A stretch of DNA of 64,000 bases from positions 12,478,359 to 12,542,358 of the forward strand of contig OZ316893.1 of NCBI GenBank assembly GCA_973895155.1, given 5' to 3'. Positions 10,410 through 55,954 of this stretch are shown piece by piece. This DNA comes from Marsupella aquatica. Lineage: Eukaryota > Plantae > Marchantiophyta. Every line of letters begins with the position of its first letter. Positions within the stretch are counted from its first letter, which is position 1. The position numbers and the translations under genes were made by a program. The notes beneath the pieces are model-generated. The model did no database searches and had not been told where the DNA came from. It was given only the letters and a program-made list of their open reading frames with translations.

Positions 10410-13400
10410 ATGGCGGACGCAGGGTCCGGGGGGCAGACGGTGTCCGCGGCGGGGCAGGCGGGACGTCGAGATCCATATGAGGTGCTTGGAGTCACTCGAG
10501 ATGCCACGGATATACAAATCAAATCTGCATATCGAAAGCTGGCGTTGAAGTAAGAAAATAAATCAGAAAGAGTTTCCATCGCAGAAAATAATTAATTTCC
10601 ACTCGGATAACTATACGAATTGTCTTTGGGGATCTTACAAATATAATTTTTTTGTAAATCAGTGGAATCACGTTCTTGTAGCCGTGGTTTGGACGTTCTC
10701 TCTTCCCTTCGCTTCACTGGAACAAATATTTGTCGACAGATTCTGTGTCGGTGTCACTCACCCCGTGTTATGTTTTCTCGCACCTCACAGTCCTAGATGA
10801 ACCAAGTTGCAGTAATGTACCTTTAAAATGAGACGTATGAAGCACTAGTTGTGTACAGTCCAGCTCGTCAATTCCTTGTTTCCCGTCATGAATGGAGTGG
10901 GTTACTACACTGATCAGCTCTGCGGTCTTTTAGCATGAGGTTTGGATAGATATTGTTGAATTGGAATGGCGTCTTCCTCCTTCATCCTTCCGTCTAAAAG
11001 CTTGTAGGTTGGTGGGGGTCCAGCAATGTCTCTGTTCGATAAAGGTCCAAAGGCAACGGCTAAGACCCTTCGCTATTTTGTTCTCTGTTTTGTCAGTGCC
11101 TTTCGTTCCTAAATTTGATGATTTTGCAGGTATCACCCAGACAAAAATACGAGTAATCCTGAAGCATCTGAATTGTTCAAAGAAGTTGCTTACTCCTATG
11201 GAATTCTCTCAGATCCAGAGAAACGGAGGCAGTATGATGCAGCCGGCTTCGAGGTATCTAAGCTGTTTAGCACTAGATACAAGCTTCAGTGTATTGTCAG
11301 AATTCTCCACACAGACAACGAGCGTCGCTTTCCAGATAGAAAGGGGGCGGGGGGGGGGGGGAAGGGCGATTTGTTTACCTCGTGCTGTGATCTCATTAGT
11401 TATGTCGCAGAATTTCTGCAGTATAGCGGTTTTAATTTCCCCTTGACCTTCTTCGTCACCTAAGACGCCCATTAGTTGGAACAAAAATAATACGAAATAT
11501 AGTAGATGAGGTCATTCCTCATGCGCTGGCTATCCACCTTCGAAGCAATGATTGCATACAAAATTGCAATGAGATGGTAGATTAATTGATTTCTCAGGAC
11601 TTATGTCGACATTGTTATTCCACATGACTAGGCCGTCGATCTTGATGGTATTGACATGGAGCTTGACCTGTCGAATCTTGGTACCGTAAATACTATGTTC
11701 GCGGCCCTGTTTAGGTGAATTTCTCTACTGTGTCACGGACCTTACGTTTTTGAAATGCATATCTACTCGATAATGTTCTCGTAATGCCGGTGGCTCTCCA
11801 CGAGTAATGCCGGTGGCCATCCAGAAAATGATTTCTGTTCACTTTGAAAGTTTGAACTCTTTATCGTCAAAAGTATTAACAGTTGGAACCATGACATTTG
11901 GGTTTTCGGTTCCCAGCAAGTTGGGTGTCCCCATCAAGACTACCATCTCAGCAAACGTTCTTGAGGAGGCCCTTAATAACACAGTGACAGTCAGACCTTT
12001 GCCTTTGGGGCGTCCACTGAACGATAAGGTAAACGATTTCCTAAAGGAAGGTTCGCATAGACTTTGTCTTGAAATGAACTCAGAATGCTGGGACCATGCC
12101 TCGTTCCTAAGTGGACAGATCTTGCTGCTATATTCTGTCATAGTGAGGTGTGCGTTTGGTGACGACATCTCAGGTCGAGAAGCAAGGCGCACACTTCTAT
12201 GGTGTGACTGTCACTGAAGCCCAAGCAGAGGCGGGAGTTGTTGTCCGTGTGATTTCCGCTGCCCAAAGTAAATTCAAGGTAGTGGATTTTGATTTTGATT
12301 TTGATTTTTTCATTGAGGCCATCTCGGAGTTCCATGTTTCTCATTCTTTCTGTATAATGTGTTATGGTCGGAATGTATCAATTAAGCTCATTTGCCTTGG
12401 ATGCTGTGAACAGCTTCTCTACTTCGAGCCTGAGGAGCATGGTGGTCTCGGATTGGCTTTGCAGGTACTCCAGTCTCCATACGATTTCTGTTTATTTACG
12501 AAAAGGTTGTCAGGCATTTATGTTATGTGCTGAGTATTGACTTAACTGTAGACCTTCTTGGAAAGTTTTGAGAAATGATTGAAGAGTACGGAAATCCTTT
12601 CCAGCTGACTGTTGTTTGGCTCATTTAACAGGAGGATAGTGTGAAGACTGGAAAAGTGACATCGGCTGGATTTTACTTTCTACATTTTCAAGTGTATCGC
12701 TTGGACCCAACTGTTAATGCTGTGAGTATCCCTGCTGAAGCTAATCAAACGTTCATAGTTGACAATTGCACTTAGCAACACGTAGGGCTAGCTTTTCTGA
12801 TGCCCAAGCGATAACTTCTGTGTTTTTTTGCATGAAGGGCACGTGTGCGTAAAATTGTAACAGTAGTGTGCAGGACATAATGCCATCACAACATGGACTA
12901 GGAAGACTGGCCCTATTTACTGGATAAAATCAGGATTTATGTGGACGACGAAATCTGGGCTTCACGGATAGATTTGAAGGCTGAGAAGATATTTGAAGAT
13001 GATGTTTGGCTTTTTTGGGAAGATCTACATACTAAGACAGTCATACTTTAGATTTCCTGAAGACTCGGGTTTTTCCTGCAGCTAGCTATTGCTAAAGATC
13101 CAGATGCAGCTTTCTTCAAGAAGTTAGAAGGGCTCCAACCTGTTGAGATGTCTGAGCTGAAAGCTGGGCCACACTATTTTGCTGTCTATGGTACGCAAAC
13201 TTCCATTGAGGTTCTTAAAATCTTGCCAGAAAATTGAAGTTAAGAAGTTTACCTTGACGGGGGGACCGGATAAACTGGAGGCCAGTTGTTCTCGTGTGGA
13301 ACTTTACTTCGTGAGCATTGCGTCAAAATGGATCTTGCGCTCACTGTTGATGAATACAGTGAAGATTGGCCTCTACTTGACCCCGATTGTACTATTCGCC

Positions 13401-14250
13401 TCAGGTGACAATTTCTTCAAGAGTGCAAGCTACACGATAGAAGCTATTTGTGCAGACTCCTTTAAAGAATCTTGTGAAAAGCTAAAGGAGGTAGAGCAAC
13501 AAATTCTAGCAAAGAGAAACGAGCTTCGGCAGTTTGAATTGGAGTATAGAGAGGTACTCATTCTACCCCTGCTGACTTAGGGATTTTGGAAAGGAGGATG
13601 CGTTAGTTACTGCACTGTAGTGATAAATATATGAAGGGAAAGTCAGGGGATCGAGTGGAGAAAATGATTTACTTGATGTGAAGATTGTGTGCGAGTCGTT
13701 TTAATCTCGTCTGCCCATTCCTCTACATAGTGCAGTTACATGTAATTGACAAAAATTTAGGAACGTGTTTGTGATTTTTGTCTCCTTAACTGGTCGGGTT
13801 TCTGCAGGTCTTAGCTCGGTTCACAGCAGTGACGACCAGATATGCTCAGGAGAAAACTTCCGTAAGTTTTTGTGAATGTTCCTACTGGTTCCGATAACAA
13901 TTTTGAATTTCGTTCAATAATATTTAATGAGAGCATTTTCAATTCTGGTGATATCTCCACCGCAGGAAGCTGACATAGTGTTCTTGGTTTTCCAGGTGGA
14001 TGAGCTTTTAAAATCACGTGACAAGATACATGATTCATTCACGGCAAACCCATCTCCAAAGAGAACCAGTAGCGGTGATTCTAAAACTGCGAAGCCTGTT
14101 AAAGAAGGTAGTGAGGACGAGGGGGTATCTGAAGATGTGCCAACAGATTCTAAAGACAAAGACAAAGACAAAGACAAAGACAAGGATAGATCTAAGTCAA
14201 GTAAGAAAAAATGGAATCTTTTTTCTAAAGGTGATGGCAAGGTTCCGTGA
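10410..14250 (+). CDS. ARG1: DnaJ co-chaperone, ARG1/ARL (ATJ15/ATJ16-like) family, ~423 aa
   Basis: 11 exons: 10410-10549, 11130-11253, 11632-11714, 11917-12028, 12174-12278, 12414-12464, 12632-12721, 13082-13190, 13405-13553, 13808-13861, 13996-14250 (1272 nt, all GT-AG, in frame). J-domain [10 protein letters not shown]...YRKLALKYHPDKN and family motifs [48 protein letters not shown], plus a C-terminal coiled coil and KD repeat. Confidence 0.93.
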
Positions 14251-21786: not shown

Positions 21787-22025
21787 ACTTCCCATCAGTG
21801 ATCATAACCTCAAAGCCCATGACAAAGAACTTCCCACCAAACTTCCCATCAGTGATCATAACCTCAAAGCACATTTAGGGTATTGCACTTGGACCAACAG
21901 CTGCCCACAATGGCGGCTTCACCTCACAGAGACCATCTCAAATATATTCAATTTCTGCCATAACCTCAAAGCACATTTACGGTTGGAACAAAAGCTTCCT
22001 ACAATGGCGGCTTCACCTCACACAG
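21787..22025. repeat. Nested duplications in the 3' region of the membrane-protein gene
   Basis: aacttcccatcagtgatcataacctcaaagc x2; cataacctcaaagcacattta x2; acaatggcggcttcacctcaca x2. Confidence 0.8.
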
Positions 22026-22091
22026 AAAATCTTTAAAAATATCCATTTCCGTGAACATGGCATCAAGGTGGTGGCCAGTACTTGGCAATGT

Positions 22092-25000
22092 TTACGGGAC
22101 GAGCCCATTTTGAACAAGCTGCCCAACTCCAATGGACATGGATGCTGTAACCACTGCTACTATTACACTCACGAGCTGATCCCTTGCTTCAAAACCGCAG
22201 ACAGATAACTGCAAAACACAACATCCCAAGAATTATATTACAGTTGGATCCACAGGTAGAGGTGATTGAGCGTTGTAGTGTAGGTAAAATTTCTCGCATC
22301 TAGTTCACGATGATGATTCTTATGAACTAGCAGCTAGGCAAGTTCGTTCTATAACAACTACTGTACCTTTATTGCTGAGCCAATTCCTGACTTGCAAGAA
22401 CACGAGTTAAAAACGAGGTACGTATATAATCACAATTACTGGACCATCTCTGACTAGTTTCAGCACTAATTTGAAGTATAATAGTTTCTCCACAGGCGAA
22501 GCACCAAAAGCTTACCTGCACTTTGGTGTTGTCCCATTTAACACCATCGGCAATTGAGCTGATAGTGTCAATTGTAGCCCTTTCCTTCTTCAAGTCCTCC
22601 TCAGGATGCACATGTTTGCCTTCTTTGATCATCTTCATTTGAGTTCTAATCTAATCATCCCACAACAGTTGATAACATAAGCCTGGTTGAGAACTAAGGC
22701 ATCGGCAATCCAATATTGACCAAAGTTGAGCTAACACTATCAATATCAACACAAACGAAGCCCAAATTGCCCAGCAATTAAGTTTTCGTTCATCAAAATG
22801 TTCCAAATTTAGTTTCAAGTAGAGAGAAAGAAATTGACTATATTTGCAACAGAAGTAGATGTAACAAGCAAGAGCCAATTACTGTGATAGAAACTACCCC
22901 ATTGTGAAAGCCTGAAACGGAAACAGTTCCGTTTCTTACCGGTGAGAATAAACTGTACATAATATATCGTTGCGTTACTATCCAGGAGTCAAAGGAGTCG
23001 AACAACCTAAAATGTTGCTCTACAAAAGATATAGTAATCGCGATAGCAAGCCTATCCAGGAAAGGTCTATATAGAGGCAGACATGAGAGACCTTGCGGCG
23101 AATCAGTGTTGTGCCATGAACCTGAAGCATATAGTTGGCATCCCCACCCGGCCACACCATAAGAGCAAGGAGTGTCAAGAAGACGTCAATGCTAAATATC
23201 ACTGTGATTCTGCATAACAATCAAAACCCAGTACACAATGAGGATGCAAATCATATACACCAAAGCCTTCGCAAACCTGAGACACCCGTTGCATGACAAT
23301 ATGTGACAGCTACATATGCCTATCAATCCATTAGGAATAAATAAGCAAAACGACAACAATAACAAACAGTCTTCTTTTTGTCTATTGTGTGAATAAGCAT
23401 CACGTGACTACGTCAGGACAGGAGAGAGACTCACAACAAATAGCAATCAGCTTTCTTTATGCCTGTCAGCATCTTCGCCACAATGTATATCAGTAAGATT
23501 ACGCAGTATCCAGCGAAGTAGGTCGAGTAGTACTGCATTGAACACCGGTTGCTATTAGCGCATCAAAAACTTGTCCCTTTCCTGCTAAATGCTTGGATGT
23601 TCAAACTCCTAAATCAAATTCCTTAACCATCGTAATCGAGAATTCTCAACGGCACAGAACCAACCTGTCGATAAGTGTAAACCACAGATTCATTGCTGAA
23701 AGGCCTAGACATGAGAAGAGGGTTGGGCCTTGTAGACGACATTGTTAATGGGCAGAAGCCTACCTTAATTCTCTTTAGAAACCCATAACCAAAGTTCACC
23801 ATCAGTTGGCGGCATGTCCACCAGGCTAAAAGGGAATCAGCATTGGAGAAGTCAAAGAAGATACCCTCTCCTGACAAGACCCCGCTGCCGCCGCTTCTGC
23901 TGCTGAACTCTTCACTGTCAGATCGGAGCCGCTTCCCAAACGTGCCAGGAATTAATGACACCCATTTTGAACTTTTTTCAAATTTCAAAGAAGCAGTACG
24001 GACATGGTCAGCTCCCGTATAAACACCAGTGCGGAGGATCTCATCAAGGCTCTGAGCAATGAAATGACGTCGTCGAAAATCCAAAACACCAATCATCATG
24101 AAGCCGACATTGGAGATCATTGCAAAGGTTATCAGCACAAAACTTGGAATCAGAACGCAATATGTAGTCCATGGTGGGCCTGGGATTGGATGCCCCCCTG
24201 CAACAGCAAGAAACAAGAAATTCAGCCTTTCTCTCTTGCAAAATCTCCAGTGTAGATACATACATGACTCCAGGTGTCAAGCGATTAGAGAGTAACAAAC
24301 TTTCTTGTGTACAGGAACCCAGCTGAGCCATCCAACAGTAAACGATAACAAAATTATACAGCAGCCAGACCCATACACAGAGGGATGTTCATGTTTGCAA
24401 TGGACCATGTCCCAAGACTTGCTTTACAGGAGTCCAATGAAGAGGAAGCCAAAGAAACCTGTAAACTATGTCTCTTCCTATAAGCAGGTGCGGTTAGCAT
24501 GCGGAGTTGCGAAACATACAAACGATTCTACATCCTAAGGTGCAGTTTCACTCTTACTGTTAGACGTACACAGAATACATGCTCCCAAGCAAGCATGCTT
24601 TAGTTTCGTGACCGCAAACTGGTACTCTAGCCCAGCGATGAAGCTTAAAATAAGGGTACATACATCCAGACATCGACCAAGAGCAATCGGGATGGACCAT
24701 GATCTTACCCAGTATGAATCTACCAGCCGCGGGTATCACAGCATGACAGAGTCCCAATACACAGCAACATACCCTGAGATGCTGACTCAAGAGTGTGTGT
24801 CCTAACCTCTTCAACCTGAAAATAAGACAGCCTGTACAGCTTAACACCTCCGGCTTTGCAATGACGTTGAAACGCTAAACTTCAAACAACTTGAGTGGTC
24901 AGTGTAGAAGGAAGCCCCAAACCAGTGGCTCTTCCCTGGACAGTCACGAGAACTAGAGTATTCACCTGCTTAAACTGGAAGCCTGTCGTATTACATGCGC

Positions 25001-27656
25001 AGCATATAACCGCGAAGGAAGATATCCAAGATTGACCTGACCCCCGGCTTCAGCCCATGCGAGTGGGTCTTTGGCCAATTCCTCACAGTCTATTTCCAGC
25101 CATCTATCTGCTCGCTTACCATAACTAAAGCTCAAACTCTGATGCCACGCAAAGTGGTAGTCAGCTTCAAAAAGCATGGAAAGGAATGTGCTCACTACTT
25201 TGTTCATCGACTCCCGGTACGAGTTTAGACTTGCCGTTGGAAGGCTGAAAACTTTCATTACACTTGCATCTTCTTCACCCACTCACATTTATTAGAAATT
25301 CAAACAGTTACCGTACATAAATAGGTCGCCAATACAATACAGATGCAAAACGACAGATACTTGATTGAAGAAACCTGAATCAAGATCTTGTTTCTCAAAT
25401 AACAGTGTATGAGATTTTCCACATACATTGAAGTCATTTTTTGCAAGCCGAAGATCAAGAACCAAATCTCTTATTGCTTGCGTTGAATCAGCATTGGGGT
25501 CTAGTTTGAACGAGTATTTCTTCAATATCAACTTGTTCCTTAGAGCAGAAAGTAGCAACTCATACTTTAGAACCCTTCGTGGAATTGGATCCTTCCATGC
25601 AGCCAACAACTACAAAAACCAACATCCCGAAATGTAGATTAGTGCTAATCAAGTAGTCGCCATGCGGGGGAGTAACAAAATCGCGCCTGGCAGACCTTAC
25701 ACGGCAGTTTCTGATGAGTACCAAGCTAAAAGAAACGCCAGTTACGTGTCGAACTTCAAATCGTCCTGCGAGTAAATCGTGAACGACTCTAAGCAGCTCA
25801 TGCAGAGCACAAAGGAGCTACTACCAAAAGTTTATGAGAGGATCGTATAGTTTAGTTCCTAGATGTCTTCTTTCAGGGCTGCTACTTACAGTTCTGTACT
25901 GATGTACGTAAGGAGGTACCGTTTTGGTCTGCATCTCCTCCATCTCAATCTTTGACAAGAATGCATACTTGGTTGCGATGACCTGCGAAGAAATGGCAGA
26001 TTCCTGAATAATCAATAACTCTTGGAAGACAGATGCAGCAGACAAGGAAAGCTCAGTGCCCTACATCAGCTATTATTGTCATCTATTTCCGGTATTGCAG
26101 TGAAGGGAAATGGAATTGAAACCGTGGAATCACAAACAGAAAACCACACAAGGTAAAATGACAGCAAAACCATATCCGCATCTTTGACTTACCAAATTGC
26201 GCAAACCCCACAGAAAATCCACCAATACGATATCATACAAAAAATCATAGTGTTTCGCCTCGGCAAGATACATAAAACTCACCACATTCAACATGTAAAC
26301 TGCATCCACAATTTTAAATTTGATCATCGTGAAAATGCTAGCAATCGATGAAAGCACTGTCTTGGAAAGGAATAAGCACACGGAAGACATAAACACACAA
26401 CCCCATGATGCCATCTTAGTCAACCATGTTGCATTCATATGTAAAAAGTACTCACAGTTTGCAGCCCAGAAAAGTTGTGTCGCAACCAGACCAGAACTGT
26501 CCCAACCAAGAAAGCCACGATTGATAAGACCAAACCATCCGCCATCAAAATAATACAGCAACGGGCCAGAAAGCGGCCAGAAAGTATGATAAATAAACTC
26601 CTTGCAGAAGACCATCCTGTCAAACAAACATGTCATTAGAAAATAAGGAGTGCACAGAAGTGAAAACGGGCTTCAGGAAAACAAACATCAAAAGTCCACT
26701 GAGTTCCCATCAAATCTCTGTGCACCCCGCCATCTCGCTGTGTCAGTCATATTCTGCATTCACGAATAAGAATAGCGTGCTTGGAACCCCTTGAAGCTAA
26801 AACCAACTCCTATCCACCAAGGGACCCGAATAGTCACATGATAGACAACTTGAAGATCGTACAATTTTCTAATAGTGATACACAAACTATGTCCATTTGA
26901 AAATAGCATGTCAGAGTCACTAGTGCTGGGTTTCGTGTAAAAATGTCAACTTTTGATTTGAACAACATCTTCGACTATCCACGGTCAACTGATTGCGTTA
27001 GAGCTTTAAAACCACACTGGCGTGCTCGTGGATTATGTGACAGTGTTCACTGCTGGCCCTACCAGGGAATTATACAACACGGAGGTCCATGATTCGAATT
27101 TTTCTATGCGCAGGTTACTTCCAGTACATGTAAACCAGAAAAGTGAAACGCAGCCTCGCGCTGCGAAAAGTACTGTAGACTGCAACCCAAGCTTTACACA
27201 GGGAAGAAGGATCTTAAACGTTCTATGTGCCAAACTTAAAATCGAGATTTCTACGGCTAGTTTATATCAAGCACTAACATACTTGTTGAATTTCACAGCA
27301 GCCCGAGCTTCCAAGTCCGCCAGATAAGAATAATCGCTGTCATGCTTTTCTGAAACTTCCTCAGTCCCCTCATTCTTATCATCATTCAGATCCTTCTTTT
27401 TTTCGTCGCTCTCCTCTTCTCCCCTGCCTTCTTTTTGGTCATAACCGTCATACGGAAGCCCTTGTTTCAAATCAGCCTTCTCGGGAACGGTTTCTTCATT
27501 GTCCTTCTCTTCTTCATCCTTGTCCTCTTTTTCATCAAAGCCATTGAACGGAAGCCCTCCCTTTGTGTTGTCCGATCCCTCGCTCGCGCCCAAAACACTT
27601 CCATTTGCAAGAGCTGAAGTCGGATACGCTGACTTTTCAGGATAACTTTTAGCCAT
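22092..27656 (-). CDS. Uncharacterised multi-pass membrane protein, ~736 aa; candidate PHTF-like 7TM ion-channel (OR/GR superfamily) member
   Basis: 13 exons: 27279-27656, 27063-27103, 26456-26616, 26193-26299, 25890-25982, 25361-25609, 24966-25138, 24709-24815, 23764-24197, 23435-23532, 23092-23209, 22516-22650, 22092-22208 (2211 nt, GT-AG, open frame). The exon-1 donor is the least certain junction. Acidic disordered N-terminus followed by about seven hydrophobic segments. Confidence refers to the gene model; the family call is inference. Confidence 0.8.
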
Positions 27657-28120: not shown

Positions 28121-29955
28121 AAAATGAGGAATATCAAAACCACACTCAGACAGCCAACTCTTCTGAGATCCACCAGTGGGGACCTTATCAGGGATTGGAG
28201 AGCACCGTGCAATTTGGAAAAACAGATAATTCGCATCGAATTTGGAAAATGGCCTACCCTATTTTACAGTCTCGACGAGGCGTGGAGTGGAGTGGATACA
28301 GACCGGGAACTAAACCGATATAGAGAAAATTGTGCAATCTTGAGGAGCATCGAAAAAATCCGATCAAGCTTTAGACTAACCTAAGAGGAGACAGCCGAAA
28401 TCAAATCAAATCAAGTCAAGACTTACAAACGAGCAGCACAGCCGACACCAAATCAAATTTAGAAACTACGAGGAGTACTTACGAGGATCGAGGCCGAAAT
28501 TAAGCAAAATTCTGACTCGGACATTGAGAGAAGGGGAGTAAAAGCTGCCAGAATTCCCCCTCTTCTGCATCAATTCTGGTGGAGGGCTTTACCGCTGCAG
28601 TGGAACGCACGCTAGCAGCCTGTTGGTGAAGATAAGAAGCGGTCTCAAGCGGATGCCGATGATAGCGAGCTGGCCGAAGAATCCCAAGAAGAAGAACGCT
28701 ACCGTTGCCAGATACATCTTGACTAGTCTTGCCTGGTCTACACCAGCGCCTTCGCGTTGCGTTGCGTTGAGCCAATTGCTCCTTGATTCCCAGCGTCCAA
28801 TGTATATGGACACGACCAGATTGCAAAAGATCAGGTCAGTAATCAATCTCTGGTCAAGATCTCAGACGTCTGTCTCTGAAGCTGCGATTTCACACAGTCA
28901 CGAATTCCTTTCGCAGTTTCGCTGTTTCGCTGTTGCTCCTTGTTTCCCGTCCTCACCACGCACCCTGCGAAGTAATAACAGGCACTTCCCAATTCCCGAT
29001 CGAGGTGCTATGTCCGACGAAAGCGACGAAGAAATGAAATGAAGAAGAACAAGAACTACTGTGCAGTCTACCGTGCAGAGCGGATAAGTGCATTCCGTGG
29101 TTAATTGCGTGAGGGCCATGTGGTCCCCTAATATAGTATCAATTTCCTTTGTAAATATACCAGAAAATGCAGTTTGCATAAGTGCAACCAAGACCCAAGT
29201 GCAATGGGTCTATAACTGTGCACATGCATTTATCAGTTACTCCAACATGACTTTATCATTTAGTGGGATGCTTGCAATAGAAGTATGCTCGATAAGCTCG
29301 GCAGAATTTCATGCACTTGTCCAGTTGGATTGTGCACCATGGGGAGTCCAAGCGTGTGATCTGACGAGACATACGAGGAAGTGCAAGAAATTCCGGTGCA
29401 CTTATTGGGTACAACCATGCACATATGATGAAGTGCATCAATGATATTCCTTGCACTTATATATAACATACTGTGTACCATGGATAAGTGCAGGCTTGTA
29501 GAGTCTTCCTGGGAGCCTGCACTTGGACACTGTAAATTCTATGCAGTTGTGGGCCTTGGCTGCACAAAGCCACAAACACTAGTACTATACAGAGCAATGG
29601 GGATACCATGCATTATTGTGGAGTTCTTGCATGTAATGTGGCTTCTTCATCTCACCACACAAAAGCCCACGTCAAAGGACCCCAGGGGGGGCACCTTCGC
29701 GCACCAAGTGTGAAATTCAGTTTAGTGCAAAGTTGATTGTTTGTCCCTTTTCCCCTGACTATTTTTCACTTTTATATGTGTTTCAACATATAAACTCGTC
29801 TCTATTGAAATACAAACTCGTTGTAAAAGTCCATGGACACTTATCCATAAGAATAGTTACATAGTCTGTAATACTCATGAAGTGTGATTTATTAGAACTA
29901 GCCCCATGACCAGTAGATATGAAGAAAAATCTTGGACAATAAGATTTATAAGCTA

Positions 29956-32900
29956 CCAGCTCCATGCCCGTGCATTGCACGAAAGACTTCGACGCAAGAT
30001 GTCGAGGAGAGGGCAAGATGTTGAGGTGAGGGCAAGATGTTGAGGTGAGGGCAAGATGTGAAGGTGAGGGTAAGATTTTGAGGCGAGGCAAACATGGACA
30101 GTTGTGCATTGCAAACATATAATTCAGGCAAAATGTCAAACAGATTAATACAAAAGTGATACAATCTTTATTCACCCGTACAATAAAGAACCTCATCATA
30201 TACAATGTCTTTTGTCAACCTTGCTTGACCCTCCTCGAAATCCAAAAGTAAAACCTTGATAGTTGTACGTAGGAGATGTTGCCCTTGAAAATGCTACATA
30301 CAACTGTACGTGACTAAATACAAGCTTTAAAAGCTGTAACCCTACATGTTTTAAAGTCTGACCTTGAGTTTTGTTTATGGTCATTGCATATGCCACTCGA
30401 ATGGGAAATTGGACCCTACGTAATAAAAAAGGAAGTGAATAGTCAGATGTTGTGACAGGGCCCCAAACCCGGTAGTAACTTAGTGATAACTTATAATTGC
30501 GTATATAAGTAGAAAGACAAGTAGGTGTAGTAAAAGTGTTTGGATTTTCAGATTTTTCATATTTGTTAGTTCTAATAAATGGATGCGACAACCGGACAAA
30601 ACGAAGTTGAGAGGGGTGTCGGGCGGTGATGGATGACAAGGGAACCATTGAGGGGGTACAAGGAGGCCACAAGGCAGCCCAAGGACTTGGAGCCAAGGTG
30701 TGGGCATCTTGGAGGGGTGGGGGCTGGTCGGAGGCTCCACGTAAGGCGCAAAATGGGAAGAATGACCAAAATATAGAAAACATTGAAACTTAAGACAGAC
30801 GTTGCTGCGCTAGTACTATTCCAAACATGGTCATGCTTGGATTCATTTTGAAGCCCTCAATGACCCCATGCAAAACTGAGGTTCTCTAGTTGATTTTAGG
30901 TCTATATCAAACAGTAACATCTTGAGGGACCTCAACGCCCGTAAAACGGCAAACTAGGCAACCTTGGAGTAGTGATGGTGGGAGGGCCCTTAGAAGGAAG
31001 GGGTTCCCACACTTGTGTTCCCCTTCACCCTTTGTGTGGTCCTCACATGTTTTTTTGCTCTCTTTCCCTTTCCCACCGTAGAAGGGGCCCCCTCCTTTTA
31101 CAACGAACCAGTGGTGGCGAACAGGAGGATCGGGGCTCAAGTCAGGGCACCGTGAGTGAGGAGGAGGAGGACTGATGAGGAGACCAACTCACGGGGCTCA
31201 AGCCAAGGCATCGTGAGTGAGGAGGAGGATTGATGAGGAGACCAACTCACGGGGCTCAAGTCAGGGCACCGTGAGTGAGGAGGAGGAGGATTGATGAGGA
31301 GACCAACTCATGGGGCTCAAGCCATGGCACCGTGAGTGAAGAGGAGGAGGACTAGGGTAGCCATACGGACCTGTCGTATGACCTCTGGATTTTGAAACTT
31401 TTTGGAAGGGTGCACTCACAGGCTTGTTGGAAAGAGCTCGCGGAGTTGATTCCAACAAGAGGCGGCGCTCCTCAAACGGAGCCAGGATGAGTAAGTTAGG
31501 GCCCGACAAAGTTGGGTTTATGAGATACTGAAACGGCCATAACTTGGTCGTCTGATGTCTGTTTCAAGAGCGGTTGAGTGCTTCATGATCAAGAGGAGGA
31601 GGGCTATCCAGGGGTGAACTCAGTAGTGCAAGTGGAAGGGCGCCTAGTTTCGGCCATTGTGGGGTTCCTTGCCATTTCACGGTTCACGGAGTAATGTTGG
31701 GGCGCCGTCGAAGGCACCGTCGGCCCCATTGTTAGTTTAGGGTTTAGGGTTTTAGAAGCATGTGTGTGCCGCATGCTTTTAGTTTAGGGGTTTCTTAGTG
31801 AAGGGTTTAGCGGCGCCGCTAGGGTAAGCCGCCATCGTTGTGGCCCCGTGAGGGGTGCTTTGGTGTGTTTTCTTGGTATTTAGGGGGAGAGCCCCGGAGT
31901 AGTGAGGGGGGAACTCAGTCTAGTGTTTGCTTAGGGAAGTTAGCTCATAGCCAAAAGAGGGAATCAAGCCAGAGTAGTGAGGTAGAGGTGTAGCACTTGC
32001 CCCAGTGAGGCAGTAGTTGGGCAGACGGCAGGAGGCCGGGTTGCCCTTGCAATGTGTTACGATGTTTTGCCAAAAGATATGGATTTGGTTTGATTCCTCA
32101 AGTTTTGGTGTGGTGTTACCTTTTCTGGTTCACAATTGTGTTCTTTCCCAAGAAGCGTCTGAGGAATCCTTGCACGGTTTGGTCAACCATGTGAGTAGGA
32201 GGGGTGGTGACAGCACTCCACCGACGACCAGTAGGAGTGTGTGTGTGGCGTAGTCCATGGGACTTGATCAAAAGTAGAGCGGCTAGTCGGTAGACTTGAT
32301 CAAAAATTACATTTCCGGGAGCGGAAATAAACATACTCATCCTACATGCAATAGAATCCTAATAGCGTCCCTCCACGTTCCCGTCATACGATAACAAACG
32401 ATTTTAGTAAGAGTAAATATGTAATTGTCGTCTAAATCGTTTGATAAGCAGGTGACAGATGTCAACGGAATCTGTGGGATAAATGTAAGGGTCCCTGCAT
32501 GTTTTCCTGCAAAAACCCAATGCCCATGTGTTGCACGAAAGATGTCGAGGTGACAAAAGATGTCAAAGAGAGAAAAAAGATGTCAAGGTGATAAAAGATT
32601 CAAGGTGAGCAAAAGATGTCAAGGTGATAAAACATGGAAAGGAGAGGAAAGATGTCCAAGTGAGCAAACAATATCCAGATGATAAAAAAGGTAGAGTCCA
32701 AGAGAAAAGCTTTCAAGGTGAGCAAAAGATGTCACACTAAGCAAAAGATGTTGAGATGAGAAAACAAATTCTGAAAGGAGAGAAAAATATCCCAAGATGA
32801 ACAAAAGATGCCAAGGCGAGCAAAAAATGTTGAGGTGAGCCAAAAATGTCAAAGAGAGAAAAAGATGTTGAGATGAGAAAAAGATTTTGAGGAGACAAAA

Positions 32901-35258: not shown

Positions 35259-38200
35259 TGTTGAGCATAGACGACATTCGCAACGGCAAGCCCATGAACC
35301 ATCCAACGTACAATAGTCAACACAGAGAGATACATGGTTCACCTCCACATGAGGCTACGTCCACGGGAGCACACAAGAGCTTTACTGCACTCTAGGCCGA
35401 CTGGCCATACCAAGCATCCACAACATAAGCTCTCCCTATCTCTCAACTAGCTCTGTAACAATGAGTCTAAGTTCCACCAAGGTCTGGCATTAGCCCTGGC
35501 TATACTCACAACAACACTACCGCTAACATTAGCTAAGTCCTAACCCGAGTTAGACTAACTATGGTTAGCTCATGAGTCACAAGACTAGAGCAATATCTAA
35601 CAAACTCCCCCTTGACTCTTGTCTTGGGGACTGGACTAAATGCTACCATATGGAATCCTCAGCGGGAAGTTCTAGACAATCACCAAACCAGGTCTCCCTC
35701 TAAAAACCACAAGGGTTAACTAAGGGTTAACTAGAACTAAGCCGCAGCCAAATAGGAATGAGTAATCCATATACAAATAGTCACACATTGCTAAATAACT
35801 TTACTTGCATTACAACTACAAAACTTGCAAAGTAGCACGGTGTCTTGAGAAACTCTCCAAAGGAATCACTTTGGTAAAGGCATCAGCGGAATTGAGCTTT
35901 CCATCAATCTGGACTAGCTCAAAAGTTTTATCAGACACTGCTTGCCTGATAAAATGGTACCTGATATCAATGTGTTTCACCCTATTATCCATCACTTGGT
36001 TAGCAACCAAGTGAAGAGCACTCTGACTTCACAGTGTAGAGTCATTTTGCCATGTTCTAAACCCATCTCCGCGATCAACTTGTCCAACCATTGCTTCCTT
36101 TGTTGCTTCTGCTGCTGCAATATACTCTGCTTCTGTAGTAGATTGAGATATACACTTTTTCAAGGTAGATTTTCAACTAATACATCCTCCTCTAAGAGTA
36201 AATACAAACCCAGTTGTAGACCTCCTTGTGTCCAGACAGCCTCCATAGTCAGAATTTACATAGCCAACTAACGTTCTATTTGATCTGTCATCAAATAGTA
36301 ATCCATAGTCCTGTGTTCCCTTCAGATACTTGAGAATCCATTTCACAGCTTCCCAATGTACCTTCCCTGAATTTGACATGAATCTGCTTACCTTGCCCAT
36401 TGCTAGGGCCAAATCAGGCTTAGTACAAGTCATCAAATACATCAGACTACCTACTGCCTTCTCATAAGGAATCTTAGCCATCAGTCTTTTCTCCATAGCA
36501 TCCGTAGGAGAGAAAGCCGATGATAACTTGAAATGTGAAGCTAGAAAGGAATACTCACTGGCTTATAGTTTTCCATTTTGAATCGTGCAAGTACTTTCCT
36601 CGCATACTGGCTTTGACTCAAGCACAACTGTCTAGTTTCAGAGTTCCTAAAAATCTCCATCCCTAAGATCCTCTTGGCTTACCAAGATCCTTCATCCTGA
36701 ATTCAGAACTCAATTTTGCCTTGAGACTATCAACCTCAGATTGATCTTTAGCCACAATCAGCATGTCATCCACATAGATCACCAAAATGATGAAACCAAA
36801 TACATCATTCTTGACTGATTTTGTATACACACAAGGATCATACACCATCCTTGTAAAACCTTGAGCAAGCATAAAATCATCAAACCGCTTGTTCCATTGT
36901 CTGGGAGATTGCTTCAATCCATACAAGGACTTGAGCAATCTGCAAACTAAGTTCTCTTGGCCCTTCTTCATAAAGCCTAGTGGTTGTCTCATGAAGATCA
37001 TCTATTCCAAATTGCTATAGAGAAAAGCAATAACAACATCCATCTGATCCATCACCAGATCAAAAAACACAACAAGCTGATACAAGATCCGAATTATGGA
37101 ATACTTAGCCATCGGTGAAAAGACCTCATTGTAATCCATTCCTTTCTCTTGAGTAAATCTCTTGGCAACAAGCCTTGCCTTGTAGATCTTGTCTCCACCC
37201 TTTGAAGGACTGTCATTCAACTTGTAAATCCACTTGTTGTCCACCACTTGCTGACCTCTTGGAAGCTCCACCAGCTCCCATGTCTTGTTGTCACTCAAAG
37301 ATTACAACTCCCTCTGCATTGTTGCATTCCATTCATGCTTCTGCTCTGAAGCACAAGCCTCACTGTACGAAGAAGGTTCTCCTTCTTCCAAGATCAAAGC
37401 CATGTTATCATCATCAGGTGCAATGTCAATATCATCAGATAGCTTAGATGAGTCTGCCCATTGACCATACCTGGTAGGAGCTCTAGTAGAACAATTGGAA
37501 GTTCTTCTAGTAGATGACTCAGGCTGATCTGCTACTGCTGCAGGCTGAATTTGAGGTACTCTAGCAACAATCTGCTCCTCTTGTTCCATCACAGGAACCA
37601 GCTCTAAGCCCAGAGCTTCTCCATCTCTCCTGTCATAAACATCATCATGACTAATCTCCCCCTCAACCCGGTCCGAGATGGAAGATTTCCCCTTGTCAGT
37701 ATGGGAGTTCTGAGAACTCTCCCCCTCCTTTGATGATCTAGATTCATTAAAGGACACATCTCTACTGACAATTAGTTTATAAATTACTGGATCCCATAAC
37801 CTATAACCCTCCACACCTTTCTGATAGCCAAGGAAAATGCACTTCTTCGACTTGGACTCTAGCTTTGATTGAAGCTGGGAAGGTGTAAGCACATAAGCAT
37901 CACATCCAAAAATCTTTAGATGTGAGTAATCTGCTGGACGCCCGTACTTCATTTCAAATGGCATCTTGAATTCAATAGAATTGGATGAAGAAAAATTTAC
38001 CCAATAAGTTGCAGTGTTGACAGCTTCAGCCCAAAACTCATGTGGTAAGCATGATTGACTCAACATACTCCTCGAGCGGTCCAATAGTGTTTGGTTGAGT
38101 CTCTCAGATACACCATTCTGCTGAGGAGTAGAACTTGTTGTGAGATGGCGGGTAATCCCTGCTCCTTACAATACGTTCCAAATTCCCCGAAACTGTATTC

Positions 38201-41200
38201 ACCGTCATTATCCGATCAAAGATATCTCACCTTATTACCAATCTGATTCTCAACTTGGGCTTTCCACTTCTTAAAAGTGGCAAAAATATCAGACTTATTG
38301 TGTAGAAAGTATATCCACACATACCTTGAGTAAGATTTCGTCTATGAACGTGACATAGTATAACCGTCCAGAATGTGAGGGAGTAGGGGCTGGACCCCAC
38401 ACACACTATGTACATACTCAAGTACCTTCTTGCTGGTGTAAGTTCCAACTCCGAAGGGTTTCGTGTGCTGCTTCCCAAGCACACAGTGCTCACCAAATTC
38501 CAACTTACAAGATTGCAAATTAGAAAGTAATCTTTTTTTTCTGAAGAATAGCCAAACCTTTTTCACTCATGTGGCCCAAACAGAAGTGCCACATCCGGGC
38601 CGTCTTCTCATGAGATAAGGTTACATTGGCTTCATCATAGACTACATTGCCCTCCAAAACGTATAGATTGTTATGTCTCTTTCCCTTCACTACAACTTTA
38701 GTACCAGTTGAAACCTGAAGGACACCATTAGCAGAACTCCACTGATGACCATTTGCTTCTAAAACTCCAAGTGAAATGAGAATTTTCATCATGCTGGGAA
38801 TATATCTTACATTCCTCAATGTTATCATAGCACCATCAAACATATGAAATCTAACAGATCCAAGTCCAACTACTTGACATGGGATTCCATTTCCCATCAA
38901 CACTGACCCGTTGGAAACCGTGTAAGAACTAAAAAAATCTCTCCTAGAGCAAATGTGAAAAGTATATGCACTATCTAGAATCCAGTCATTACTACCTGGA
39001 TTTGACACTACGTTGAGAGCATAACCTTGGCATCACAATATGTCATCATCATCAAGCAAATCTACCTCATGCGAGTTCGATGTCGCCTTAGCTGATGCAG
39101 TAGGGTCCTTTACTCGACAATCCCTTTTCATGTGGCCAGACTTGCCACATCTCCAACATGCAAGAGGCTCCTCTCTTGCGATTTTCTTCTAGGTTTAGAT
39201 CTCCCCCGTGATGTAGATCTAAATCTATTCTGCCCATTCGTGTGTTGCGCTGATCTTCCACGGTTCACGTTCAGCGTAGTGCAAGAAGAAGATGCAGTCT
39301 GTGATTGACCCAACTTCTTCTGAGCATTATCAGACAGTAAAGAGCTCACTACCTCATTATACAAAATGGACTTCAAATCTCTGTACAAGAGCACTTGTTT
39401 CAAGCCCTGATAAGATGGCGGTAAGGAGCTTAATAGAATCAAGGCCTTATCCTCATCTTCAACTCCCTTACCCAGGTTTGACAGATCCACCGCTAGACTG
39501 TCAAACTCATCCAGGTGATCCTGCAACTTGCTCCCTTCCTTGAGCCTGAGGCTCATCAAGAGAGACTTCTTGTACAGCCGGTTTGACGTATCTTCCTGGT
39601 AGTACTTCTCTCTTAGAGCCTTGAATAGTGACGCGCAATCCGCATAATCATCTAGCTTCTTGATGATGTGCGGCTTCAGATAAAGCATCACTGCATTGAC
39701 AGCAATCACCTGCTCTTGTCTCCACTACTTTTTTGAGATCTCCTCCTCTCCATCATATTGCTCTCGCGAAGAGAGCAGATGAGCTAAGCCCATGGCCCTA
39801 AGAACACCCTTCACTTGCTTCTCCCAGAGCAAGTAATCAGTACAACCATCGTACTTCTCCACCTCAAACTTCACTCCTCCAAATCTAGCCATCTCCCTCT
39901 TCTTCCCCACTACTAACAGCTCTGGTAGTAGGATAGCTTCCTCCACAGCACACCGCACCGGTGATCGTACCGGTGATACTAGTTCCTCCTCAAACGGTAG
40001 CAGCTCCTCTTTAGACTCTCTATCTGACCGTCGTGATCCTGAAGCTCCACCGATGCCAATTCTTCCAGTATTCTTCGAGTCACTCATATGAGAAAATCAT
40101 GAAAAAAAGTCTTTTTTCAAAACTTCTCATAAAACTCAAAACTCAACACCGCCGCGTAGCCCACGAAGCTAGGAGTCCAATACTGAAAGCGGAAATCAAA
40201 ATCAAAATTCGACGGAAAAGTTATTCAAATTTTGATCGGGGTGGGTAAAACCTTAGGAAACTCCCCCATTTTGACCACCTCAGAGAATAACCGAATTACC
40301 AAGTATAACCCATCGTCGGAATAGCGATGTGATCGGTACGCCGCGTTGCCAACTTCAATGGCTACAACCTCGCCAAAAAAGAACCAAAAAAGTTACCGTT
40401 TGGCAAACGGAATCTTTGTCGGACGGCCAAAAAATAGCTCTCGATCTGTTTTTTGGGAATATTCCCGCACAGTCCGACAGGGCTCACAGGGGGCCATTCC
40501 CCGTGTCGAAGCGGTTAAAACAAAGGGCAACAGGTCCCGACACAAGGAGAACAAAGGGGAGGAAAAACGACTTAAAAAAGGTGTCTTAAAGGGGGTGCTA
40601 AGCCCCTTAGACCTTAAATACCCCGTAAAGGGCCGAGTATATGTCGATCAGGGGTATAGGGGGCCGCAAAGGGGGTGACACGTGGCCAGCTACGGCTTCT
40701 TACACAGCTGGATACGGGGTCGGGGGCGAAAAAATGCCGTGCGCCGGGGAGGGGCGTCGGCAAGAGGCAGGGCAGGGCGCAAGGAGGTGGCAGGGCCGAT
40801 AGGGCGTGAGCCGGTGGAGAGGGTGCGGGGGTGGAGTGGTCGTTGCTGGCGCCGGCAGCCTGAGGCGAGGAGTGCACGAGCCCAAAAATATTTTGGACGG
40901 CTGCTGCGAAGCCGTGTACTGTGCGAGCCGGCACACGAAAAAAGTGTCCTTAAAGTAACCAAAAAAAATATGTCATTTTCAAAGAAAAAAGCCGGTTACA
41001 CACCTAAATCGTCGCTGTTTTAAACAAGAAAACAACGAGTTACTGACGGGATCATATGTTGCCAAATCACACCGGCGCCGTCTGCAGCTCCAGCACTGTA
41101 AAAGCTCTCCGTCGTGTCGTCTTCACTCCGCGTCAAGTGCCAATCCCGGGCTCAAAATGATCGTCTCGCAGCGATCAAACAGTTGAGCCATAGCACTTCA

Positions 41201-45772: not shown

Positions 45773-47203
45773 TTAAAAATTACAATTACCCGTTCTAGGG
45801 GGAATCCATTCTACAAGATCATTCAGAGCTTTATTGCTGCTTCCTCCTTTTGCCACAGCTGCTTCTGCCTTCTTCTTCAGCTCCTGAACTCTCGCTCTCA
45901 ACGCATTTCCTTTATCCGACAAGAGAAGTCGCATTGCGTCCTCGAGTCCTACAAGACTCATGGGACTCTTAGGATTTCTACCTCTCACTTCAACTCCAAT
46001 TTTCAGCACATCCACCAGGTACCTGCAGTTTAGAAGCGTATCACTAGTGACAAGAGGCCAACATGCCATCGGTACGCCCGAACTTACGCTTTCGATAATG
46101 GAGTTCCAGCCGCAGTGTGTCACAAAGGCTCCGATGGCATGGTGTTGCAGCACTCGTAGCTGCGGCACCCATCCTCTGACCACCAATCCCCTTTCTCTCG
46201 TTCGTGCTTCAAAATCCGGGGGAATCGCTTTTGCAGCGGCTCCAGATGCCACCCACAGAAAACTTTGCTCACTAGCCTCCAGCCCTTGAGCTAACTCCTC
46301 GACCTCATGGGGAGATAAAGTAGCCACAGTGCCGATGCAGACATAAACAACTGATCGAGATGGCCGTCTATCGAGCCATTGCAACGGATCAATTCCTCGT
46401 TTGTTCCCTTCTAGGCTCCGATCCTTGAAGTTGGCAGCGTTCGAAAGGGGCCCAACTAAAAACAATTTCGGGATCTTCCCTGGAGAAACGTCTTTCCAAG
46501 CCAGCTGCAGTGCGTCCATCGGAGCAGCTTCCAAATCGTAAAAGGTGTTCACAATCACAGCATCAGCTTTGTTTATCTCACGCCCTACCTCAAAAAAACT
46601 TAAATTCCCAGACGGCGGCGGAGGTTGGAGCATATCTCGATACTCTAATGGTGGAAGACCAGGTATTTTCAAGTAGCCCTCAAATTCTTCAATGTATGGA
46701 GCTCCATCTGGATCGTGCTTGATGATCAAAGTCCCGTCAGCAATCCGCGAAGGTAACTCAGCGAGTTGTCTCACGTGGGTCCCTCCACAGCTGTGAAACT
46801 GATAATACGGTATGCTCAACTGATTAGCTGCGTCTCTGATCCACGTCAAGAACCGATCGGCGATGATGCAGGTAGGTCCAGAAATTCCTCCGTTCCGATC
46901 CGCCAGCAGCTTCTCAAGGACGGGCTGGAAGTGGCTTCGTGCAGTAGCCAGTTCGTTGCCAGTGTCGACCAGAACGTCTCCAGTTCGGGGGATATCTTCA
47001 AATCCAAAATCCTGGTAGGAAATTAGATTGAAGTCAAGTCCATGTAATTCATCGAAAGTCCGGACGAGTACGATGAACTTTTCGGAACCTACTAGTGTGA
47101 CAGTGACACCTCTCTTCGCAATTTGGAGTGCAAACCTGTAGATCCCGAATAAGTGGGCCTGCGCGAGCAGTGGTACAAGCAAAGCATGCTTTTTGCAGTT
47201 CAT
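45773..47203 (-). CDS. UDP-glycosyltransferase (GT1 family), 476 aa, intronless; copy A
   Basis: N-terminal HALLVPLLAQAHL (catalytic His), CIIADRF, VNTFYDLE, VVYVCIGT and PSPG box WVPQLRVLQHHAIGAFVTHCGWNSIIESVSSGVPMACWPLVTSDT. Confidence 0.95.
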   Translation of the reverse strand: MNCKKHALLVPLLAQAHLFGIYRFALQIAKRGVTVTLVGSEKFIVLVRTFDELHGLDFNLISYQDFGFEDIPRTGDVLVDTGNELATARSHFQPVLEKLLADRNGGISGPTCIIADRFLTWIRDAANQLSIPYYQFHSCGGTHVRQLAELPSRIADGTLIIKHDPDGAPYIEEFEGYLKIPGLPPLEYRDMLQPPPPSGNLSFFEVGREINKADAVIVNTFYDLEAAPMDALQLAWKDVSPGKIPKLFLVGPLSNAANFKDRSLEGNKRGIDPLQWLDRRPSRSVVYVCIGTVATLSPHEVEELAQGLEASEQSFLWVASGAAAKAIPPDFEARTRERGLVVRGWVPQLRVLQHHAIGAFVTHCGWNSIIESVSSGVPMACWPLVTSDTLLNCRYLVDVLKIGVEVRGRNPKSPMSLVGLEDAMRLLLSDKGNALRARVQELKKKAEAAVAKGGSSNKALNDLVEWIPPRTGNCNF

Positions 47204-47895
47204 TTTCGGGACTGAATTCGCCGCTTCAGCTGCTATCCAACCTTCCTCGACAATTCCCGTTCGATTTGCTGCCTTGTGAGTACAGAAAAAAACGAAAGCA
47301 CTCTTTCCATCAAACGATCAACACATTGTTGTCATTCAGGACGGTTTTGTACTCTCGATCCCACTTCCGCTCATTTGGCTTGCTGAGTGTACTCCGAGGT
47401 CACGTTCTCCATGTGTAGCAAGGGAGTTATTGGGCGGATAGATCCGTATCCGGATTTTATACGTGTTCAGTCGATGCGGAGCTCGGAGGAAGCCGGAAGG
47501 TTTTACTTATCCCCTCTGTTTCATCCTTACTATATAATTCTTACAACTACTGTAAATTATACGAGGCCCGTCAAATCCATTATATCGCCTTGGAGACAGA
47601 CCGATCAGTACTCTTTGCGTAAGTTAAATGTGGATTCCTTTCTTCCTACGTTCTAAAATTCGCTGTGTAGTGCAGCAACCAATGCAGAAAGAACAATCCG
47701 TGGTAAAAAGAACAATCCGTGGTAAAATTATCGTGGGAACTGCCATATGTAAATAAGGTCAGCTCGAAATGTACCAAATAGTTTTCACATTTGATGGCAA
47801 ATGGAGTCGGCAGTGCAAATCGTACAGGGACCATAGTTGCCTTTACTCACACACCTTTTCCAGCCCAAGCACATTCGCCCTCTTCAAAGCTATGA

Positions 47896-54762: not shown

Positions 54763-55954
54763 TTTCGGGACAGAATTCGCCTCTTCAGCTGCTAGCGAAC
54801 CTCCCTTGACAGTTCCCGTTCGATTTGCTGCCCTGTGCATACACAAAACAACGATCGCACACTTTCGATCAAACGATCAATGCATTGCTTTCTTGGCCAT
54901 AGAATTCAGGACGGTTTTGAAACCATGAATCACACTTCCGCGTTTTTGGCTTGCTGGGTGTACTCCCGTGGTCACGTTCTCCCTGTGTTGCAATTATTTG
55001 GCGGATAGATCCTTTTTGGGATGTTTCTGATTGCCTTGAATCCAAAAAGCCCAGCATACAACAGGGGTGGCCCACAAAAGGGGGTACACATGGCAAACAC
55101 AAAATGGGGTCAGCACCGGTGGGGGTCCAAAGGTTGGGGAGCCAAAGGGACCTGAAAGGCTGGCACCACGAGAGAAGCAGGCCCATCACCAAGGGGAAAC
55201 AAGAGATTTAACTAATGCAGAAGAGTGGCACAACTCTGGAGACCGGCCAGTCGAGAGGTACCGGCTGGGCATCCAACAATGGATGATAACAAGAATCCGT
55301 GATAAAGCAAAACAATATCAGTATTGGGATGTTGCATGTGTTTAATCCCCACTATATAATTCCTACAAGTACTGTAGATTACCGTACGAGCCCCGTCCAA
55401 TCCATTCGTTCGCCTTGGAGACAGACCGATGAGCACTTTTTACATAGAGTAAACGTGGATTCCTTCTTCCTACGCTCTGAGATTCGCTGTGTATGCAGCA
55501 ACCAATGCAGAAAGAAGAATCTGTGGGAAAGTGATAGTGGTAATGTGATATGTAAGTAAGGTCAGCTCGAAATGCACAGAAGTTTTTCGTATGTGATTGC
55601 AAATTGGGTCGGCTGTGCAAATCATGTAGGGAGTATAGTGCCGAAGCACATTTGCCCTCTTCAAAGGAGTGCCCTGCTGGTAGTCACACATCAAAATGTG
55701 ATAGTATACAATGTGCACTCATTTATTTAAAGTAAATAATGAGGTTTATCATGCTATGGAGGGATGTCGTCCACCCTATATGTGTCCACCCTATATGTCA
55801 TATTTTGATGTGCAATTACCGGGACCCCAAAGTAATGATGCTTGAAAACAGAGGGAGGCTTCTTGTTGACTAACCTTATGATGGCCTGAAAATAGTCAAG
55901 AACATATAGTCTGAGGGTACTGCCAAAACCAACATTATGAACTGTAGATATTAG

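What the first reader, a model, noticed from the sequence alone, without database searches (positions are those of the whole stretch)
22092..27656. Candidate PHTF-like 7TM ion channel (insect odorant/gustatory receptor superfamily) in a land plant
Seen in sequence: a 13-exon ~736-aa protein with an acidic N-tail, a short amphipathic segment (EFIYHTFWPLSGPLLYYF), TM1 (LVATQLFWAANFYMLNVVSFMYL), TM2 (FLYDIVLVDFLWGLRNLVIATKY), a long loop, TM3 (LRVCCCVLGLCHAVIPAAG), TM4 (YCVLIPSFVLITFAMISNVGFMMIGVLDFRRR), a second long loop, TM5 (YYSTYFAGYCVILLIYIVAKML), TM6 (YLLITVIFSIDVFLTLLALMVWPG) and a split terminal helix (LSVCGFEA / LVSVIVAVVTASMSIGVGQLV). Established: long intracellular loops, short extracellular loops and a split TM7a/7b characterise the 7TMIC fold (insect Or/Gr, PHTF, plant DUF3537). 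Inference from recalled human PHTF sequence, aligned by eye: MIGVLDFRRRHFIAQSL ~ CVAERTYKQRLLFAKLF; FDFSNADSLLAWWTCRQLMVNFG ~ [48 protein letters not shown] ~ FVTLGSETS..TSILLTEQINLYLKM; LSVCGFEARDQLVSVIVAVV ~ [20 protein letters not shown]. It does not look like DUF3537 to me. If correct, this is a second, PHTF-type 7TMIC lineage in an early-diverging plant. Speculatively, it could be a ligand-gated channel in flagellated sperm, since animal PHTFs are male-germline associated.
Basis: partly seen in the sequence, partly recalled or inferred. Interest (0 to 1): 0.9.

Follow-up and report, generated by a model that had tools for sequence, protein, structure and literature searches.

The report
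Insect smell-receptor fold in a liverwort
This 12-exon liverwort gene encodes a membrane protein whose 84%-identical relative is predicted to fold like insect smell and taste receptors, so it is likely an ion channel from a second branch of that family in land plants, shared with mosses and some single-celled eukaryotes; a role in swimming sperm is possible but untested.

The parts
27283..27656 (-). Exon 1, residues 1-124: acidic N-tail, predicted to be disordered
   Evidence: pLDDT <50 over residues 1-49 and 60-105 of the ortholog model; least conserved region, 0.22
26456..26616 (-). Exon 2, residues 125-178: short helices before TM1 (likely the TM0 re-entrant loop) and the start of TM1
   Evidence: region conservation 0.64
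26193..26299 (-). Exon 3, residues 179-214: end of TM1, 5-residue outer loop, TM2
25890..25982 (-). Exon 4, residues 215-245: end of TM2, start of the long first inner loop (IL1)
25427..25609 (-). Exon 5, residues 246-306: IL1, predicted helices and a short strand
24966..25138 (-). Exon 6, residues 307-363: IL1, second half
   Evidence: the acceptor at 25138 is fixed by the C. fissa alignment
24709..24815 (-). Exon 7, residues 364-399: TM3
23764..24197 (-). Exon 8, residues 400-544: long TM4 reaching into the cytosol (invariant F..D..RR..L), Ser/Gly-rich disordered IL2, conserved W..R helix, start of TM5
   Evidence: query
23435..23532 (-). Exon 9, residues 545-576: TM5, 3-residue outer loop, start of TM6
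23092..23209 (-). Exon 10, residues 577-616: TM6 and its cytosolic extension
   Evidence: one helix over 570-628 in the ortholog
22516..22650 (-). Exon 11, residues 617-661: end of the TM6 extension and cytosolic helix TM7a (predicted anchor domain)
22092..22208 (-). Exon 12, residues 662-699 and stop: beta-hairpin linker and TM7b (predicted pore helix) with a conserved Gln near its outer end
   Evidence: Gln in 15 of 18 family members

Best explanation
The gene encodes a 699-residue membrane protein of a bryophyte-algal-protist subfamily that is predicted to have the insect odorant/gustatory receptor (7TMIC) fold with the long first inner loop of the PHTF-like Class-B, and it likely works as a four-subunit cation channel opened by a small molecule. 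Shown by sequence: the gene structure, the family, two paralog clades in liverworts, seven hydrophobic segments and the loop lengths. Predicted on the 83.5%-identical ortholog: the fold. Inferred by analogy to Orco, MhOr5 and Gr9: four subunits join through the cytosolic ends of TM4-TM6 and TM7a; four TM7b helices line one central pore; the conserved Gln and hydrophobic residue at the outer end of TM7b form the gate; a ligand binds among the outer halves of TM2-TM6. The folded IL1 and the acidic N-tail would face the cytosol as regulatory parts. Step odds: 7TMIC fold 0.95; Class-B type 0.8; tetrameric cation channel 0.65; ligand-gated at the cell surface 0.4; mainly in sperm or flagellated cells 0.25.
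Confidence: 0.62

Rival explanations
1. Same fold, but an ER-resident protein like mammalian PHTF1. It would act as an intracellular ion or leak channel, or as a membrane scaffold that recruits partners through its N-tail and IL1, with no external ligand.
For: Rat PHTF1 is mainly in the ER and mouse PHTF1 binds FEM1B (PMC9998090 section 6). The family is low-copy (two clades) and slow-evolving (83.5% to C. fissa, about 60% to Marchantia, 46-48% to mosses), unlike expanding chemoreceptor families. The cytosolic parts (IL2 helix 0.71, IL1 0.57) are as conserved as the membrane parts. The Atlas neighbour TMEM39B is, from recall, an ER protein.
Against: TM7b keeps a Gln plus a hydrophobic residue near its outer end in 15 of 18 members, the pair that gates Grs (PMC12635824, passages). 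By eye the PHTF sequences lack a Gln there.
Confidence: 0.25
2. It is the true plant ortholog of PHTF1/2, strongly diverged.
For: By-eye likeness along the whole chain to PHTF sequences in supplement 10 of PMC9998090: F-P before TM1, P-x-x-x-R in TM3, basic residues after TM4, W..R in the IL2 helix, G..N in TM6 and the hairpin Gly before TM7b. Long IL1. One phase-0 intron sits just before I-x-x-x-x-K-M in the TM6 extension, where PHTF isoforms in that file also appear to have an exon border (inferred from skipped segments; chance is not excluded).
Against: PHTFs of mammals, flatworms and oomycetes share near-identical motifs (FRL..V..IK.WL.LR, TEQ.N..L, NPL.YN) that the window protein and its orthologs lack (by eye). 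No PF12129 match in 12 of 12 members. No PHTF-named cluster among the Atlas rows shown. IL1 is about 155 aa and mostly confidently folded, against more than 300 aa and mostly unpredicted in PHTF. IL2 carries a disordered insert of about 40 aa that PHTFs lack.
Confidence: 0.12
3. It is not a 7TMIC. The structural match comes from long-helix bundles, and the protein belongs to another multi-pass family such as TMEM39.
For: Foldseek E-values are 0.009 or weaker and TM-scores are under 0.5. TMEM39B scores 0.94 in the Atlas.
Against: Of the rows shown, only Or/Gr/Orco chains align over 300 or more residues from TM1 to TM7b, and they fill ranks 1-8 and 1-19. No PF10271 match.
Confidence: 0.03

Closest known systems
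Class-B (PHTF-like) eukaryotic 7TMICs (Himmel, Moi, Benton; bioRxiv 2023.08.30.555482)
   Same: 7TMIC core plus a long IL1 between TM2 and TM3; broad but sparse distribution in eukaryotes, with blastoclad fungi among the taxa that preprint covers.
   Different: The main text names no bryophyte member ('bryophyt', 'moss', 'polymorpha' 0 occurrences) and says preliminary screens showed no obvious new plant-specific 7TMICs. Its Figure 4D and Dryad data were not visible to me and may include these proteins.
PHTF1/PHTF2/Phtf (animals, oomycetes; Pfam PF12129, accession recalled)
   Same: Fold, long IL1, similar Z to Orco, scattered by-eye motifs.
   Different: Diagnostic PHTF motifs are absent, IL1 is half as long and folded, IL2 is longer, and TM7b has a Gln. 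The paper's validated PHTF file has 0 occurrences of ten plant, algal, fungal or ciliate genus names searched.
Insect Ors, Orco and Grs (6C70, 7LIC, 8VC1, 8JM9, 8Z9Z)
   Same: Predicted seven-helix packing, long TM4-TM6, split TM7 with a hairpin; S-x6-Q-L matches 3 of 4 positions of the (T/S)Yhhhhh(Q/K/E)(F/L/M) motif of PMC7746228.
   Different: 7-11% identity, 700 against about 400 aa, two large cytosolic inserts, no motif Tyr, low copy number; gating and tetramer not shown.
Plant DUF3537 proteins (PF12056, Class-A)
   Same: Plant 7TMIC fold; Atlas score 0.91.
   Different: No Pfam match. DUF3537 has a long IL3 and an unrecognisable TM7 motif and is widespread in seed plants (PMC7746228); this family has a long IL1 and no named seed-plant hit.
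Kinetoplastid 7TMICs (Trypanosoma and Leishmania GRL1)
   Same: By eye, similar spacing from TM3 through TM4 to the D..R turn and a W..R helix in IL2.
   Different: They carry an N-terminal repeat domain that this protein lacks; the relationship was not quantified.

Membership tests
7TMIC superfamily | Seven transmembrane helices | tested here: met
   Seven hydrophobic clusters and seven matching helices in the ortholog model; no dedicated topology predictor was run
7TMIC superfamily | Shorter extracellular than intracellular loops | tested here: met
   5, 8 and 3 against 155, 104 and 73 aa, with my helix boundaries
7TMIC superfamily | Intracellular N-terminus, extracellular C-terminus | tested here: inconclusive
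   K/R bias 12 against 7; the orientation follows from the structural match only
7TMIC superfamily | Long TM4, TM5 and TM6 reaching into the cytosol | tested here: met
   Helices of 49, 31 and 59 residues
7TMIC superfamily | Split TM7 (TM7a, linker, TM7b) | tested here: met
   Helix 633-658, hairpin 662-667, helix 670-696
7TMIC superfamily | Tetramer with a TM7b-lined pore; ligand-gated cation conduction | not testable with these tools
Class-B (PHTF-like) Euk7TMIC | Long first intracellular loop on a 7TMIC core | tested here: met
   155 aa; 141-215 aa in 17 of 18 members, 693 aa in Mesostigma; definition
Class-B (PHTF-like) Euk7TMIC | Groups with Class-B in sequence or structure trees | not testable with these tools
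PHTF (orthologs of PHTF1/2) | C-terminal motifs conserved from mammals to oomycetes | tested here: not met
   Compared by eye only: against supplement 10 parts 1, 17 and 18 of 18
PHTF (orthologs of PHTF1/2) | Pfam PF12129 N-terminal domain | tested here: not met
   0 of 12 members match at E<=10; HMMER's filters drop most weak matches
DUF3537 | Pfam PF12056 match; long IL3, short IL1 | tested here: not met
   0 of 12 members; IL1 is the longest loop
Animal Gr/GRL | TM7 motif (T/S)Yhhhhh(Q/K/E)(F/L/M) | tested here: inconclusive
   Window protein matches 3 of 4 positions; family totals are 10, 0, 15 and 8 of 18; structural end-points are one residue off this register
TMEM39 | Pfam PF10271 match | tested here: not met
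   0 of 12 members, despite an Atlas score of 0.94

The most novel reading that the evidence does not exclude
Bryophytes keep an ancient pair of insect-odorant-receptor-like channels (clade A, Mp4g16350; clade B, Mp1g20980) that assemble, perhaps together as Or and Orco do, into a ligand-gated Ca2+-permeable channel steering swimming sperm to the egg. The pair would be inherited from flagellated algal ancestors and lost in seed plants along with the flagellum.
Probability: 0.13. Interest if true: 0.88.

Novelty: new member of a known kind. Interest (0 to 1): 0.52.

Why it matters
Function in the 7TMIC superfamily is known almost only for insect members, and no PHTF-like protein has a known role. 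This gives a Class-B subfamily with two named genes in Marchantia polymorpha, a haploid plant with motile sperm and, from recall, easy knock-outs, so the channel and sperm hypotheses can be tested directly. It also means land plants carry two 7TMIC lineages, DUF3537 and this one, and the second is apparently missing from seed plants.

Tried and rejected
Expression in the window's own organism: no RNA holder listed, and the four runs laid are DNA-like contigs. A second read-laying run returned no data, so most sister-organism differences were not seen. No whole genome is held, so copy number and synteny are unchecked. IL1 folded alone from a moss-type ortholog gave pLDDT 51 and pTM 0.36, so I did not search with that model; whether IL1 has a known fold is open. 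Sequence search of solved structures: 0 matches. Prokaryotic or viral relatives by DNA pattern: 0 of 4 candidate stretches in genome contigs and 0 of 34 in viral contigs. An attempt to obtain a real PHTF through a short motif gave 3 chance matches in bacterial contigs and 0 viral, so the PHTF comparison stayed by eye. My single exhaustive search used only exon 8, and the three word-based searches scored only about 8,000 candidates each, so the taxon survey is incomplete. Literature: Marchantia gene ids, 0 papers and 0 hits in the supplements of PMC8476127 and PMC6290024; PHTF+Marchantia 0; bryophyte+gustatory receptor+PHTF 0; TMEM39+7TMIC 0; TMEM39+PHTF 6 papers, unrelated by title. The journal version of the Class-B paper is not held. 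Earlier scan findings: none. Rejected: the 13-exon/736-aa model, DUF3537 membership, and LSVCGFEA as TM7a.
Full report
Gene model. The region holds one spliced gene on the minus strand. tblastn with homologs gave the exon blocks, and splice sites were fixed by hand from GT/AG candidates. The result is 12 exons: 27656-27283, 26616-26456, 26299-26193, 25982-25890, 25609-25427, 25138-24966, 24815-24709, 24197-23764, 23532-23435, 23209-23092, 22650-22516 and 22208-22092. It spans 2100 coding bases and 699 residues, with 11 of 11 introns GT-AG and no internal stop. The protein is 83.5% identical to Calypogeia fissa CAM6085117 (P0024) with a single one-residue gap, about 60% to Marchantia, 56% to Riccia and 46-48% to mosses. 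The window is therefore probably from a leafy liverwort (inference). Two independent checks back the model. First, an intronless contig encoding a protein 98.6% identical to Sphagnum fallax KAH8945622 (L002) and a genomic contig (L004) give the same 11 intron positions and phases. Second, differences in a sister organism avoid the exons: 5 of 30 substitutions are exonic, 4 of those synonymous, and 7 of 7 indels are intronic. Those counts come from the 40 of 338 substitutions and 12 of 51 indels that displayed, after dropping 3 rows seen only in run X1.

Family. An exhaustive search of 1.84 billion representatives with exon 8 found 16 proteins at E<=0.001. I looked up 13 of them. Six carry organism names (Marchantia polymorpha Mp4g16350, Riccia sorocarpa, Mesostigma viride, Blastocladiella emersonii twice, Mantamonas plastica) and 7 do not. 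Word-based searches added M. paleacea, both Riccia species, C. fissa, Sphagnum and Ceratodon and a paralog set of 4 liverwort proteins including Mp1g20980. A tree of 18 proteins gives clade A (window, Mp4g16350, mosses; 100/99) and clade B (Mp1g20980; 100/100), with Mesostigma outside both and long branches among the outgroups. Two unnamed fragments join clade B and five join clade A (Blastocladiella left out). A profile of the 14 clade A and B sequences finds the four distant proteins at E 4e-124 to 8e-45 over most of their length. No named seed plant appears among the hits. No named fern, lycophyte, hornwort or Physcomitrium appears either; these could be hidden under unnamed 50% representatives such as P0002, so the distribution is suggestive only. 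Pfam gives no significant match. UniRef labels the Riccia and one Sphagnum member 'Odorant receptor', an automatic name.

Which kind of 7TMIC. The 2023 preprint sorts eukaryotic 7TMICs into Or/Gr/DUF3537-like (Class-A) and PHTF-like with a long IL1 (Class-B). IL1 is 155 aa here and 141-215 aa in 17 of 18 members, so this is Class-B by that structural definition; the phylogenetic part of the definition could not be tested. I read PHTF sequences in supplement 10 of PMC9998090 (parts 1, 17 and 18 of 18). But mammals, flatworms and oomycetes share several near-identical C-terminal motifs that the liverwort family lacks, PF12129 is not matched, and PHTF's IL1 is over 300 aa and mostly unpredicted. 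I therefore read it as a separate Class-B subfamily. This comparison is by eye. TM7b ends in S-x6-Q-L, 3 of 4 positions of the Gr motif (PMC7746228), with the Gln in 15 of 18 members. In Grs a Gln and a hydrophobic residue swap in the pore during gating (PMC12635824). However, the structural alignments end with this Gln opposite MhOr5 Val468, one residue off, so the match is not confirmed.

Mechanism. The most likely reading is a tetrameric cation channel with a TM7b pore and a TM4-TM7a anchor, by analogy with every solved member of the fold. Ligand gating and surface location are weaker inferences. The main rival is an ER channel or scaffold like PHTF1. The sperm idea has no direct evidence: I found no expression data for either Marchantia gene. 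In its favour, the named taxa have flagellated cells at some stage (recalled) and no seed plant was found. Against it, Mesostigma and Mantamonas have no sperm (recalled), named ferns and lycophytes are missing, and intronless copies turn up in environmental assemblies of unknown tissue. Glutamate-receptor-like channels are, from recall, already implicated in moss sperm chemotaxis.

Novelty. Class-B 7TMICs are described. I found no text naming bryophyte members (searches; in-paper finds 14, 38, 96). The validated PHTF file of PMC9998090 has none of ten plant, algal, fungal or ciliate genus names searched (41 of that paper's 53 files were not searched). The preprint did not exclude bryophytes from its screen, and its Figure 4D, supplements and Dryad data were not visible, so prior inclusion is about as likely as not. 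What I saw of each paper: bioRxiv 2023.08.30.555482, parts 1-4 of 6 and passages; PMC9998090, passages, section 6, supplement searches and parts of files 10 and 16; PMC7746228 and PMC12635824, passages; PMC8476127 and PMC6290024, supplement searches only; all others, search listings only.

Verdict. The protein is PHTF-like rather than PHTF, and the sperm role is open. It is a new member of a known kind whose value lies in being testable in Marchantia. Interest 0.52.

Noticed in passing
fold search of the ortholog model against BFVD: Giant-virus proteins match about as well as insect Grs did: Catovirus A0A1V0SCD1 (440 aa, prob 1.00, TM-target 0.44), Edafosvirus A0A3G4ZRZ0 (444 aa, prob 1.00, 0.42), Mimivirus LCMiAC02 A0A4D5XEV6 and ChoanoV1 A0A5B8IPG2 (E 0.004-0.16). 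These may be viral 7TMICs; the word 'virus' does not occur in the main text of the 2023 superfamily preprint.
   Followed up: no
ESM Atlas result for P0024 residues 108-698: A TMEM39B cluster (PF10271) scores 0.94 with 197 shared features, above DUF3537. Either a general multi-pass signal or a hint that TMEM39 relates to 7TMICs; no paper holds both terms.
   Followed up: partly
window 24966-25982 (IL1, residues 222-376): The first inner loop is conserved (0.57) and mostly confidently folded in the full model but not alone (pLDDT 51), so it may pack on the membrane core; its fold is untested.
   Followed up: partly
P0012 (Mesostigma, 1613 aa); P0009 and P0011 (Blastocladiella): The Mesostigma member has IL1 and IL2 expanded to about 690 and 260 aa. 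Blastocladiella emersonii has two copies with nearby locus numbers (001358, 001361).
   Followed up: no
window 11122-13577 (+): Exons of a DnaJ-domain gene (PF00226, E 2e-13).
   Followed up: partly
window 36176-40096 (-): Fragmented Ty1/copia retrotransposon (gag, integrase and RT matches).
   Followed up: partly
window 30199-30789 (-): Weak helicase C-terminal match (E about 0.002, below cut-off), probably a Helitron or PIF1-like fragment.
   Followed up: partly
window 45776-47317 (-) and 53335-54876 (-): Two near-identical long open frames encoding UDP-glycosyltransferases (PF00201), a tandem duplication.
   Followed up: partly
window 21790-22030: Short direct repeats just downstream of the stop codon; the sister organism's contigs differ here by a 20-base deletion and a 46-base skip.
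   Followed up: no
window 22570-22910 and 29100-29500: Raised contig depth and loose ends in the runs suggest small dispersed repeats in and next to intron 10 and upstream of the gene.
   Followed up: no
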